Below, one piece after another: positions 29,785-31,262 of a DNA stretch of 44,396 bases. This DNA comes from a virus. Its lineage: Duplodnaviria; Heunggongvirae; Uroviricota; Caudoviricetes. The notes below the pieces were generated by a model. The model saw nothing but the letters and a program-made list of their open reading frames with translations, was not told where the DNA came from and ran no database searches. The DNA is taken from IMG/VR virus record IMGVR_UViG_3300028422_000701; one strand, written 5' to 3'. Both the position numbers and the translations under genes were made by a program. Positions within the stretch are counted from its first letter, which is position 1; the number at the start of each line of letters is the position of its first letter.

Positions 29785-30219
29785 ATGGTAAAAACAGTTA
29801 AAGGTACTAAAATTAGTACAAAAAAGGTTGGTAATAAACCAACAGTTAATAAGGTGGTTAGTAACCCAGTAGTTACATTAACACCTGTTACAACAGTAAC
29901 AACAGTTACACCAAATGTAACAGTAACACCACAAACGGTAGGGGTAAAGGTAGTAAATGTTAAACCACAAATTGTATATGTAAAAAGGTTATTACATAAT
30001 TACTTAAAACAAAACGGGTTAAACCATACAAACAGTACAACAACAAAACCACAAGTAATAAGTAATATAACACCACAACAAGTACAACAAGTACAAACAC
30101 AACTTAATACATACTTACAAGGTATTAATACAATTTATAACTATACTACTACACCACAAACATTATACATACAAAACCACTTTATAACACACAGTAATAA
30201 ATATTTAGGGTTAAAATAA
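29785..30219 (+). CDS. basic protein lacking Asp/Glu/Ala; paralogue of 30879-31262
   Basis: shares VKPQI.YVKR...NYL, STTTKP, Y.YTT..Q..YI.NH..TH..KY; AGGTAGGT RBS. Confidence 0.85.
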   Translation: MVKTVKGTKISTKKVGNKPTVNKVVSNPVVTLTPVTTVTTVTPNVTVTPQTVGVKVVNVKPQIVYVKRLLHNYLKQNGLNHTNSTTTKPQVISNITPQQVQQVQTQLNTYLQGINTIYNYTTTPQTLYIQNHFITHSNKYLGLK

Positions 30220-30303
30220 CCCTACTTGTTACATAGGGTATAACCAAAAAAGGTTGTACCCCTTGTAATGGGTAATACCATTATAAAAAGGTAGGTGTAA
30301 AAC

Positions 30304-30453
30304 ATGGGTACTAAAAAGTACGGGGTTAAAACATGGGTTAAAACAACCGTTATTGTACTAGTTATGGGGGTAATTAGTGGGTGGTTATGTGTAGGGTTAG
30401 ACAACTTATACCAAAACCGTATAAACCAAATACAACAACAAAATAACAACTAG
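30304..30453 (+). CDS. 49-aa membrane peptide
   Basis: AGGTAGGT RBS; MGTKKYGVKTWVKTTVIVLVMGVISGWLCVGLDNLYQNRINQIQQQNNN. Confidence 0.6.
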   Translation: MGTKKYGVKTWVKTTVIVLVMGVISGWLCVGLDNLYQNRINQIQQQNNN

Positions 30454-30470
30454 TAAAGGGTAGGTAAACA

Positions 30471-30542
30471 ATGTTAAAACTAAGTAAAATAATTAAGTGG
30501 GGATTTACTCCACCAAAAAGAAAAAGAAGAAAAGGAAGATGA
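30471..30542 (+). CDS. 23-aa basic peptide crossing the edge of the GA-free zone
   Basis: GGGTAGGT RBS; MLKLSKIIKWGFTPPKRKRRKGR. Confidence 0.35.
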   Translation: MLKLSKIIKWGFTPPKRKRRKGR

Positions 30543-30635
30543 AAGTCTTCATTTTTTTCATCTTTTGTATCAAAAAGGAAGTCCTTCGTCCCAAATGACA
30601 AGTGACGTTTTCAATATCGACGTTGACAGGTCTGG

Positions 30636-30677
30636 GTTTCCAGTTTCAGGTGTGCGGTTTCAGGTTTCCAGTTTCAG
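30636..30677. repeat. 7-bp-period array of GTTTC(C/A)(A/G)
   Basis: units at 30636, 30643, 30657, 30664, 30671; degenerate unit at 30650. Confidence 0.8.
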
Positions 30678-30786
30678 GCTTGATAACAATATTCAAAATG
30701 GATAAAATTCACTTTTTATTTGCAGTTTCAGTTGTAAGTTCAAATCAGAAAATATTATTAAATTGTTGAAAAGTTACAAAAAAGTG

Positions 30787-30815
30787 TTTACTTTCCGATT
30801 ATTCTGTAGTATAAT
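30787..30815 (+). promoter_or_regulatory. promoter of the normally coded paralogue
   Basis: TTTACT-17-TATAAT. Confidence 0.6.
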
Positions 30816-30878
30816 ATAAGTAGTTAAACAAAAAAGGGTTTAACAAATCTTTGAAAATATGGAAAGGTAGGAAAGAAT

Positions 30879-31262
30879 ATGGAAAAAGATGTTAAAGTAG
30901 TACCAGTGAAAGTGAAAGAGGTTATTAGTGGTGAAACTAAAGAAACTAAGGTAGTTAAGACACCAAAGGAGAAAGTAGTTACTAACGTATTGACAGTTAA
31001 GGTTAATGATGTTAAACCACAAATCATGTATGTAAAACGTATCATTAATAATTACTTAGTAAAGGCAGGTATCAATAGTACTACAAGTACTAGTACAAAA
31101 CCTGAAAGTATTAAGTTAAGTGAAGCACAATTAAAAGAAACTAATAAGTTATTAGGTGAATGTAAAAACCTAATTAAAAGTAAATACGATTACACTACTG
31201 ATGAACAAATGGCTTATATCACTAACCACTTACAAACACATTTCACTAAGTACATAAAATAA
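30879..31262 (+). CDS. hypothetical protein; normally coded paralogue of 29785-30219
   Basis: shared motifs as above; AGGTAGGA RBS; own terminator. Confidence 0.85.
   Translation: MEKDVKVVPVKVKEVISGETKETKVVKTPKEKVVTNVLTVKVNDVKPQIMYVKRIINNYLVKAGINSTTSTSTKPESIKLSEAQLKETNKLLGECKNLIKSKYDYTTDEQMAYITNHLQTHFTKYIK

What the first reader, a model, noticed from the sequence alone, without database searches (positions are those of the whole stretch)
29785..31262. Paralogue pair in which one copy is recoded at amino-acid level to avoid GA/TC/GC
Seen: 29785-30219 and 30879-31262 align clearly (VKVVNVKPQIVYVKRLLHNYL vs VKVNDVKPQIMYVKRIINNYL; STTTKPQ vs STSTKPE; YNYTTTPQTLYIQNHFITHSNKY vs YDYTTDEQMAYITNHLQTHFTKY). 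The first copy has no Asp, Glu or Ala (codons GAN, GCN), uses only AGT for Ser, and shows D-to-N and E-to-Q swaps. The second copy has 14 acidic residues and 3 Ala. Each has its own promoter, a related leader hairpin, an AGGTAGG RBS and a downstream hairpin. Inference: selection kept the fold while banning three dinucleotides, giving a 'pioneer' copy usable before or despite modification and a standard copy for later. Such a protein is a good candidate anti-defence or DNA-entry factor.
Basis: partly seen in the sequence, partly recalled or inferred. Interest (0 to 1): 0.92.

Follow-up and report, generated by a model that had tools for sequence, protein, structure and literature searches.

The report
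Recoded gene copy in modification-free DNA island
A phage that swaps some guanines in its DNA for 7-deazaguanine keeps a 1.15-kb island with no likely target site for that swap, and the gene inside it has been rebuilt without alanine, aspartate or glutamate while a normally coded twin sits next door, a layout shared by related phages and, as far as I could find, not described before.

Summary
ORF A (29785-30219) and ORF B (30879-31262) are true paralogues (43% identity, E 8e-24).

- **The island.** A lies in a unique 1,149-bp island (29353-30501) with 4 GA/TC/GC dinucleotides where 109 are expected (P about 3e-41). The ban leaves no codon for Ala, Asp or Glu and only AGT for Ser. A has none of the three residues. 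B has 17.
- **Conservation.** The design recurs in at least six related phage lineages (11 islands). Every island excludes the same three dinucleotides and holds a D/E/A-free family member. Normally coded copies lie nearby wherever enough flanking DNA was assembled (G000, G001, L009, L030).
- **Selection.** Island copies are under purifying selection (dN/dS 0.22-0.31 at dS about 1), so selection maintains the ban.
- **Likely cause.** Both complete genomes encode the preQ0 pathway plus DpdA. Published DpdA targets are GA and GGC. The island is therefore best read as DNA that cannot receive 7-deazaguanine.
- **Rejected.** General restriction-site avoidance, Rho-type strand-specific avoidance and deaminase decay were tested and not met.
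- **The protein.** It is an orphan: very basic, with a disordered tail and a three-helix bundle.

The "pioneer copy" and anti-defence ideas remain untested. An earlier scan note describes a strand-specific dinucleotide-free cassette in another phage; this one is strand-symmetric.

The parts
29353..30501 (.). Island in which G is almost never followed by A or C on either strand (GA, TC and GC excluded). The residual hits are GA 29460, GC 29462, GA 29708 and GA 30400.
   Evidence: 4 observed against 109 expected, P 3e-41, unique in the genome. G+C is 27.5% against 30% elsewhere.
29353..29663 (.). AT-rich non-coding left part of the island, with inverted AT repeats. The ban holds here too, upstream of A's promoter.
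   Evidence: Relatives also have 390-860 bp of AT-rich, repeat-laden non-coding DNA before the island gene.
29664..29692 (+). Promoter-like site for ORF A (TTGTAT, 17 nt, TATACT, with TGG before the -10).
   Evidence: It is one of a class of similar TTGTAW...TGGTATAMT sites in the genome. This is a consensus match only.
29700..29747 (+). Leader hairpin of ORF A.
   Evidence: -16.4 kcal/mol, z -2.7.
29767..29776 (+). GA-free Shine-Dalgarno substitute AAAGGTAGGT of ORF A.
   Evidence: The same word precedes the two small island ORFs, at 30287 and 30459.
29785..30219 (+). ORF A: 144 aa, island copy, no Asp/Glu/Ala, Ser only AGT, pI 10.3, net charge +15.
30206..30260 (+). Two hairpins after ORF A, without a T-run.
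   Evidence: -22.5 kcal/mol, z -4.0. Also.
30304..30453 (+). 49-aa ORF with a hydrophobic core, inside the island. Its one Asp codon is the GA at 30400.
   Evidence: No relative found in the other loci.
30472..30543 (+). Possible 23-aa ORF behind a third AAAGGGTAGGT site. The island ends inside it.
   Evidence: Read from the sequence. It may not be a real gene.
30637..30735 (+). Four iteron-like repeats (TTTCCAGTTTCAGG type, spaced 14, 14 and 54 nt) in a TC/GA-rich stretch between the island and B's promoter.
   Evidence: Comparable short-repeat arrays follow the islands of L009, L004 and L015.
30787..30815 (+). Promoter-like site for ORF B (TTTACT, 17 nt, TATAAT).
   Evidence: This is a consensus match only.
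30823..30844 (+). Leader hairpin of ORF B (GTTAAAC / GTTTAAC).
30879..31262 (+). ORF B: 127 aa, normally coded paralogue (D4, E10, A3), pI 9.5, 27 GA/TC/GC.
31261..31277 (+). Intrinsic-terminator-like hairpin with a T-run after ORF B.
42704..43000 (+). Third, divergent, normally coded family member (98 aa, P0017).
   Evidence: (E 4e-8 to the family profile).

Best explanation
ORF A and ORF B are paralogues of an orphan phage family. The proteins are small and very basic, with a disordered Lys/Val/Thr-rich N-terminal tail followed by a three-helix bundle.

ORF A sits in a 1.15-kb island in which no G is followed by A or C on either strand. The phage encodes the preQ0 pathway (FolE, QueD, QueE, QueC) and a DpdA guanine transglycosylase. 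The two phage DpdA enzymes with mapped specificity act on GA, or on GA and GGC. The island is therefore most likely a stretch without any DpdA target, so its DNA stays free of 7-deazaguanine whatever happens to the rest of the genome.

Living there forced the gene onto a 17-letter amino-acid alphabet and a GA-free ribosome-binding site. The phage thus keeps the same protein in two coding states: one on DNA that can never be modified, and one (B, plus a distant third copy) on ordinary modifiable DNA.

The purpose is inferred, not shown. The island copy would guarantee supply of this protein from a template that nothing which recognises, excises, cuts at or stalls on the modified base can affect. 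Examples are modification-dependent glycosylases and nucleases, or poor reading of modified DNA early in infection. The normal copy would provide the unconstrained version. The protein's charge points to nucleic-acid binding.

Shown: paralogy, the ban, its conservation and its selective maintenance, and the co-occurrence with DpdA/preQ0 genes in both complete genomes.

Inferred: that DpdA of this clade targets G followed by A or C, that the island is unmodified, and the reason for it.
For: Paralogy.

Island statistics and uniqueness.

The ban removes all codons for A, D and E and leaves only AGT for Ser. Of B's codons that touch a banned dinucleotide, 4 of 31 keep their amino acid in A, against 48 of 96 for the rest.

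Conservation:
- D/E/A-free relatives P0003, P0010 and P0015, plus further copies in L009, L015, L016, L030 and L045-L048, all lie in GA/TC/GC-free islands.
- The same three dinucleotides, and only those, are excluded in 11 islands (o/e 0.0-0.4).
- Normal copies accompany island copies in G000, G001, L009 and L030.
- A second, unrelated family in L030 also has normal, partly depleted and island copies.

Selection: dN/dS is 0.22-0.31 at dS about 1 among island orthologues.

DNA-level reading:
- The excluded set is closed under reverse complement.
- The ban covers 190 bp upstream of any predicted promoter.

Modification genes:
- FolE, QueD, QueE and QueC were found.
- DpdA matches phrog_887 at E 1.6e-27 in this phage and 7.8e-51 for the intact orthologue in the complete relative G001, which also has QueD and an island.
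- No C5- or N6/N4-methyltransferase and no ThyA-like enzyme was found in either genome.

Published DpdA motifs: GA and GGC in phage CAjan (PMC7544227); GA in phage iggy (PMC10484667).

Defences that attack 7-deazaguanine or other hypermodified DNA exist: Dag glycosylases (bioRxiv 10.1101/2025.10.29.685425) and END nucleases (PMC12191111).
Against: - No modification data exist for this phage. The motif of its DpdA subfamily is unknown, and the island bans every GC, not only GGC.
- In this genome dpdA lacks its first ~83 codons in frame behind a homing-endonuclease gene. Modification may therefore be reduced here.
- DpdA is not sufficient for an island. CAjan and a 147-kb phage with a 38%-identical DpdA have none.
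- The DpdA association rests on two complete genomes.
- Nothing shows that A is expressed earlier than or differently from B. Its promoter is one of a class.
- The protein has no informative homologue or fold match.
- AT-rich repeats inside the islands and repeat arrays just after them fit a cis-acting DNA element as well.
Confidence: 0.45

Rival explanations
1. The island is first of all a cis-acting DNA element that must stay unmodified over about 1-2 kb, such as a replication origin, a packaging or injection-control region, or a protein-loading zone. The resident gene is then a passenger, or the element's own binding protein, that had to be recoded. The normal paralogue is simply the unconstrained duplicate.
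For: - Each island starts with 390-860 bp of AT-rich non-coding DNA, full of short direct and inverted repeats in the L004/L009 lineage.
- The islands of G000, L009, L004 and L015 (G001) are followed by arrays of short iteron-like repeats rich in TC/GA.
- The island keeps a fixed place, 3-10 kb beyond the terminase genes across the divergent junction, in G000, G001 and L006.
- The family proteins are strongly basic.
- Many contigs end at or near islands.
Against: - A binding site or unwinding element does not need a ban over a whole 1-2 kb that includes an open reading frame.
- The gene is the one constant content of all islands, while the non-coding parts are not alignable between lineages.
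- L030 has islands wrapped tightly around single genes of two different families.
- No origin or pac function can be assigned from sequence.
Confidence: 0.2
2. The ban has nothing to do with the phage's own DpdA. It hides this early cassette from a host factor that acts on a dinucleotide-sized DNA signal. That signal would be C preceded by G or T, which is the same as G followed by A or C. Candidates are a DNA cytosine deaminase or a very short-motif nuclease or nickase.
For: - The excluded set can equally be read as KC on both strands.
- The cassette lies in a block of small genes of unknown function, typical of host-takeover regions.
- ArdA lies about 8 kb from the islands in L030.
- DpdA-bearing phages outside the clade lack islands.
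Against: - I know of no defence with GC plus TC specificity.
- Protecting 1 kb of a 100-kb genome from a DNA-damaging enzyme would not save the phage, unless only expression of this gene matters.
- The coincidence with the published DpdA motif, and with DpdA in both complete genomes, would be left unexplained.
Confidence: 0.12
3. The constraint acts on the mRNA. The transcript avoids GA, UC and GC to escape an endoribonuclease, Rho or another RNA reader, as was proposed for a strand-specific dinucleotide-free early cassette found earlier in this scan in another phage.
For: - All island genes are on one strand.
Against: - The set GA/TC/GC is closed under reverse complement. Only 28 of the 560 possible three-dinucleotide sets are.
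- CC is over-represented (o/e 1.3-2.8), so Rho-type pyrimidine-C avoidance is not met.
- The ban also covers non-coding DNA upstream of the predicted promoters.
- No single RNA specificity covers G-A, G-C and U-C.
Confidence: 0.05
4. The island is a mutational scar from local hypermutation, for example deamination of C in TC/GC contexts on both strands, and is not a selected state.
For: G-to-A and C-to-T changes in those contexts would remove exactly GA, TC and GC.
Against: - G+C of the island is unchanged (27.5% against 30%).
- Only 3 of the 14 acidic positions show the transition outcome.
- The ORF, RBS and invariant residues are intact.
- dN/dS is 0.22-0.31, and the ban persists across orthologues that differ at about one synonymous change per site.
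- The same state is present in at least six lineages.
Confidence: 0.02

Closest known systems
Phage 7-deazaguanine DNA modification by DpdA (phage CAjan: GA and GGC; phage iggy: GA only)
   Same: The phage has the same pathway genes (FolE, QueD, QueE, QueC, DpdA). The dinucleotides banned from the island match or contain the published target motifs.
   Different: Described DpdA phages are reported as modified at nearly all motif sites genome-wide. CAjan has no motif-free stretch longer than 81 bp. A local target-free island with recoded genes has not been described in the papers I could search.
Restriction-site (palindrome) avoidance in phage genomes
   Same: Selection removes short DNA words from a phage sequence to escape an enzyme that reads them.
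   Different: Here the words are dinucleotides, the avoidance is confined to 1-2 kb, and it is strong enough to delete three amino acids from the proteins. Palindromic 4-mers and 6-mers that lack the banned dinucleotides are not avoided (98 observed against 76 expected). The enzyme being avoided is probably the phage's own.
Pre-emptive counter-measures against modification-dependent defences (T4 internal protein I* delivered with the DNA against GmrSD; anti-END inhibitors)
   Same: The problem is the same: a hypermodified phage must have its antidote available before the modified DNA is attacked (PMC12191111).
   Different: Those are injected or ordinary early proteins with known targets. Here the proposed solution is an unmodifiable template. 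No target, no inhibitor activity and no homology are shown.
Strand-specific TC/CC-free early cassette noted earlier in this scan (e1-5363262, another phage)
   Same: It is also a block of about 1.2 kb of small early-type phage genes recoded to exclude dinucleotides, and it is conserved in relatives.
   Different: That ban is on one strand and was read as hiding from Rho. This one is strand-symmetric, keeps CC, and goes with a DNA-modification system.

Membership tests
Phage 7-deazaguanine (DpdA) DNA-modification system | preQ0 synthesis genes FolE, QueD, QueE and QueC are present in the genome | tested here: met
   QueC PF06508 E 1.6e-10, QueD/PTPS PF01242 E 3.4e-33, FolE NF006825 E 2.8e-57, QueE TIGR03365 E 1.8e-38 (all four below NCBIfam's strict equivalog cut-offs, which suits divergent phage versions; FolE clears subfamily model NF006825).
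Phage 7-deazaguanine (DpdA) DNA-modification system | DpdA-type guanine transglycosylase gene | tested here: met
   phrog_887 at E 1.6e-27 for this phage (217-aa ORF, 5' part out of frame) and 7.8e-51 for the intact 300-aa orthologue in G001. NCBIfam DpdA is only weak (E 4e-4 and 1e-3). Pfam TGT gives no match.
Phage 7-deazaguanine (DpdA) DNA-modification system | 7-deazaguanine base is present in virion DNA at a defined motif | not testable with these tools
   This is a metagenomic genome.
General restriction-site avoidance | Depletion of short palindromes as such | tested here: not met
   the nine palindromic 4-mers without GA/TC/GC occur 98 times against 76 expected. Allowed 6-mer palindromes occur 33 times against 19 expected. 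Only palindromes that contain a banned dinucleotide are absent (0 against 7.3).
Rho / pyrimidine-C-free early cassette | Strand-specific lack of TC and CC on the mRNA strand | tested here: not met
   CC o/e is 1.3-2.8 in all islands. GA, the complement of TC, is excluded as strongly as TC.
Deaminase-type hypermutation tract | Transition-only changes, a fall in G+C and loss of coding constraint | tested here: not met
   G+C is 27.5% against 30%; 3 of 14 acidic sites show transition outcomes; dN/dS is 0.22-0.31.
DNA-mimic anti-restriction proteins (ArdA, Ocr) | Strongly acidic surface that mimics DNA | tested here: not met
   pI 9.5-10.8 and net charge +9 to +20 for all 20 family members. No Pfam or PHROG match.
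Known nucleoid or DNA-binding folds (HU/TF1, HTH regulators) | Recognisable fold or profile match | tested here: inconclusive
   The model has pLDDT above 90 for residues 40-127. Foldseek against PDB, AFDB clusters and BFVD gives E >= 0.3. The best VIA-align score is Z 6.8, on generic helical bundles.

The most novel reading that the evidence does not exclude
A clade of hypermodifying phages keeps key small genes in two coding states. One state lies on an island that its own DpdA cannot touch, which forces a natural 17-amino-acid protein alphabet. The other lies on normal modifiable DNA. The unmodifiable copy would be an attack-proof template for a factor that shields the phage from, or inhibits, defences aimed at 7-deazaguanine DNA. 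If so, the island's banned words directly reveal the DpdA motif of an uncultured phage.
Probability: 0.3. Interest if true: 0.92.

Novelty: categorically new. Interest (0 to 1): 0.86.

Why it matters
**A new design principle.** If the reading holds, this is a new principle in the conflict between phage DNA modification and host defences that target modified DNA. The phage would exempt a small expression cassette from its own modification by deleting every target site.

**A natural protein experiment.** A conserved, folded protein family is kept by selection without Ala, Asp or Glu, next to normally coded paralogues for direct comparison.

**A way to read specificity from sequence.** Target-free islands could reveal the sequence specificity of modification enzymes in uncultured phages. 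They also point to the genes a phage cannot afford to have modified, which are good candidates for counter-defence or takeover functions.

**Directly testable.** The tests are modification mapping, swapping the two copies, and plating on hosts with and without glycosylase or nuclease defences.

Tried and rejected
**Searches that found nothing useful**
- Megablast of 28000-33000 against GenBank phages: no match.
- Pfam and PHROGs on A, B and six neighbouring ORFs: nothing informative. PHROGs on ten further neighbours: only families of unknown function and one HTH regulator.
- Word-indexed homologue search with B: only itself. Single-protein pattern scans of viral contigs: nothing. The exhaustive profile search was what found the family.
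- Scan of 185,579 prokaryote genomes for the family: nothing, so there is no prophage or host clue.
- Rfam over the whole window: no family. tRNA scan: none.

**Structure**
- The first AlphaFold run, with two sequences, was poor (pLDDT 50). The 17-sequence run was good.
- That model matched nothing specific in PDB, AFDB clusters, BFVD or the wide VIA-align search. The ESM Atlas gave no usable hit.

**Controls**
- CAjan, and a 147-kb phage with a 38%-identical DpdA, have no island.

**Other checks**
- An antisense partner for the island gene's RBS was sought in the complete relative G001: no match of 13 nt or more.
- A family profile of all 17 sequences was too diverse for pattern scanning.
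Full report
**What the window is.** The window is the last 44.4 kb of a 108,396-bp viral record with a short terminal overlap, that is, a circularly assembled phage genome. Structural and terminase genes run leftwards from about 19.5 kb. A long block of small genes runs rightwards from 20 kb. The finding lies at the end of that block.

- ORF A (29785-30219, 144 aa) and ORF B (30879-31262, 127 aa) align over 100 residues at 43% identity, E 8e-24.
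- A has no Asp, Glu or Ala, and all five Ser codons are AGT. B has 4 Asp, 10 Glu and 3 Ala.
- A contains no GA, TC or GC at all, codon junctions included. B contains 27.
- Where a codon of B touches one of these dinucleotides, the amino acid is conserved in A at 4 of 31 positions. At the remaining positions it is conserved at 48 of 96. The divergence is therefore concentrated exactly where the ban bites.
- Each gene has a promoter-like site, a leader hairpin and an AAAGGTAGG ribosome-binding word.
The hairpins after A are not a canonical terminator.

**The island.**
- Window 29353-30501 (1,149 bp) holds 4 GA/TC/GC against 109 expected from the rest of the genome (Poisson P about 3e-41). It is the only such stretch in 108 kb.
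- G+C is unchanged (27.5% against 30%).
- The rule can be stated once: G is followed only by G or T, on either strand.
- It leaves no codon for Ala, Asp or Glu, one codon for Ser, and no GGAGG. This explains both the protein's composition and the odd ribosome-binding site.
- The ban also holds in about 190 bp upstream of any predicted promoter, and the excluded set is closed under reverse complement. That points to a constraint on double-stranded DNA rather than on the transcript.
- Palindromic 4-mers and 6-mers that lack the three dinucleotides are not depleted (98 against 76, and 33 against 19). This is not general restriction-site avoidance.

**The design is conserved and selected.**
- The proteins have no Pfam or PHROG family. 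An exhaustive profile search found 14 relatives.
- Three of them (P0003, P0010, P0015) lack D/E/A almost entirely or entirely (P0003 keeps one Ala), and a fourth (P0009) nearly does.
- Their contigs show the gene inside a GA/TC/GC-free island of 0.9-2 kb each time.
- A 22.8-kb contig (L009) carries two islands, each with its own D/E/A-free copy, plus a normal copy about 5 kb downstream of the second island.
- A complete 102-kb relative (G001) has one island copy and one normal copy.
- A 75.6-kb contig (L030) has three normal copies and one island copy. It also has a second, unrelated family present as a normal, a partly depleted and an island copy, with an ArdA gene about 8 kb away.
- Further metagenome hits behave the same way.
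- In all 11 islands the same three dinucleotides, and no others, are excluded (o/e 0.0-0.4).
- Island orthologues differ by about one synonymous change per site. Even so they have dN/dS of 0.22-0.31 and stay free of the banned words. The reading frame is translated, and selection, not a one-off mutational event, maintains the ban.
- In a maximum-likelihood tree the copies group by type rather than by phage. That would mean an old duplication, but support is weak (72/94) and shared composition could cause it.
- Profiles of the two types match at 99.9% probability over the whole folded part.

**The likely cause.**
- The genome encodes FolE, QueD, QueE and QueC, and a DpdA-family transglycosylase. 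This agrees with earlier notes of this scan.
- The complete relative with an island has QueD and an intact DpdA that is 63% identical.
- Neither genome has a recognisable cytosine or adenine methyltransferase or a ThyA-like pyrimidine-modifying enzyme.
- The two phage DpdA enzymes with mapped specificity insert preQ0 at GA and GGC (CAjan, PMC7544227) or at GA only (iggy, PMC10484667).
- An enzyme acting on G followed by A or C would find no substrate in the island. This is the simplest single rule that produces exactly the excluded set.
- I therefore read the island as DNA that cannot be modified. That is an inference. The motif of this DpdA subfamily is unknown, the island bans all GC rather than only GGC, and no modification data exist.
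- In this genome dpdA is also interrupted near its 5' end, behind a homing-endonuclease gene.
- DpdA alone does not bring an island. CAjan has none, and neither does a 147-kb phage with a distant DpdA and no family member.

**The protein.**
- With 17 sequences AlphaFold gives a confident model (pLDDT above 90 for residues 40-127). It shows a disordered N-terminal tail and three helices (46-63, 82-102, 108-125).
- Nothing specific matches it in PDB, AFDB clusters, BFVD or a wide structural scan.
- All members are strongly basic (pI 9.5-10.8, net +9 to +20). Nucleic-acid binding is the natural guess, and a DNA-mimic anti-restriction role is excluded.

**How it most likely works.** The phage keeps this protein in two coding states. 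The island copy can be read from a template that carries no modified base at any time. Nothing that excises, cuts at or stalls on 7-deazaguanine can interrupt it. Such defences exist: Dag glycosylases and END nucleases with dedicated phage inhibitors. The normal copy supplies the unconstrained protein. The order of expression, and the activity of the protein, are not shown.

**The main rival.** The island may be a cis-acting DNA element that must stay unmodified, with the gene as its passenger or its binding protein.
- For: the AT-rich repeated left part, the iteron-like arrays just downstream (30637-30735 here; similar arrays in L009, L004 and L015) and the fixed position 3-10 kb beyond the terminase genes.
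- Against: the gene is the only constant content of the islands, and in L030 the islands wrap single genes.

**Novelty.** Motif avoidance and DNA hypermodification are both known. I found no description of a local, dinucleotide-level, target-free island that strips three amino acids from conserved proteins and is paired with normally coded paralogues. The present case differs in being strand-symmetric, in keeping CC, and in travelling with a DNA-modification system.

**Limits.** All genomes are metagenomic. The association with DpdA rests on two complete genomes.

Noticed in passing
window 42474-42605 (+): Candidate small RNA, bounded by a TTGTAA-17-TATACT promoter-like site (42439-42467) and a strong terminator hairpin. 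The loop of an 8-bp stem shows 16 nt (42538-42553) that are perfectly antisense to ORF A's RBS region (29762-29777). With up to 2 mismatches, 0.11 matches are expected by chance. It would also pair with 9-10 nt of the other AAAGGTAGG sites. No counterpart of 13 nt or more exists in the complete relative G001.
   Followed up: partly
window 42704-43000 (+): A third, divergent, normally coded member of the A/B family (98 aa, E 4e-8 to the family profile). It lies directly downstream of the candidate antisense RNA and has a canonical GGAGG RBS.
   Followed up: partly
window 30637-30735; L009 3741-3900 and 5230-5400; L004 after 1812; L015 9040-9230: Each of these islands is followed by a TC/GA-rich array of short repeats spaced about 10-14 nt. 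The repeats are GTTTCAGG here, GGTNTC/CGTCA types in L009 and L004, and GTTGCGCTAA in L015. They could be iterons or operators. Their binder is unknown.
   Followed up: partly
window 29140-29350: The left border of the island is unusually rich in GC dinucleotides and carries repeats: CCTTATAGG(C/A) twice, GGAC(A/T)TTATATACCTCA twice, and TTTAGCCATTT, which recurs inside the island as TTTGAGCCATTT. The latter holds two of the island's four residual banned sites. Similar residual G(A/G)GCCAT words occur in the islands of L015 and L009.
   Followed up: no
L030 10001-14467: In a 75.6-kb related contig the recoding is graded. The contig holds a tandem array of single-gene units from two families, with normal, partly depleted (7-12 banned dinucleotides per 200 bp) and fully depleted copies. 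An ArdA anti-restriction gene and a Pyr_excise glycosylase gene lie within 8 kb.
   Followed up: partly
whole genome G000: There are two classes of promoter-like -35 words. TTGTAW contains no DpdA-type target, is common in the rightward small-gene blocks and includes ORF A's. TTGACW contains GA. If G in GA is modified, the two classes could respond differently to modification.
   Followed up: no
L007, L010, L016/L048, L006, L030, G001: Contigs of relatives often end at an island or within 0.2-3 kb of one. One ends with a poly-C artefact. This could reflect assembly breaks at paralogue or AT repeats, coverage effects, or real genome ends.
   Followed up: no
whole genomes G000 and G001: In G000, GA, TC and GC are each depleted genome-wide to an odds ratio of 0.75-0.76, and CG to 0.53. 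In G001, GA is 0.99, TC 0.84 and GC 0.81. Genome-wide depletion is therefore not a shared trait of the clade.
   Followed up: partly
G000 genome 30172-31819 (L003 2172-3819, minus strand): The dpdA reading frame here starts at about residue 84 of the intact G001 orthologue.
   Followed up: partly
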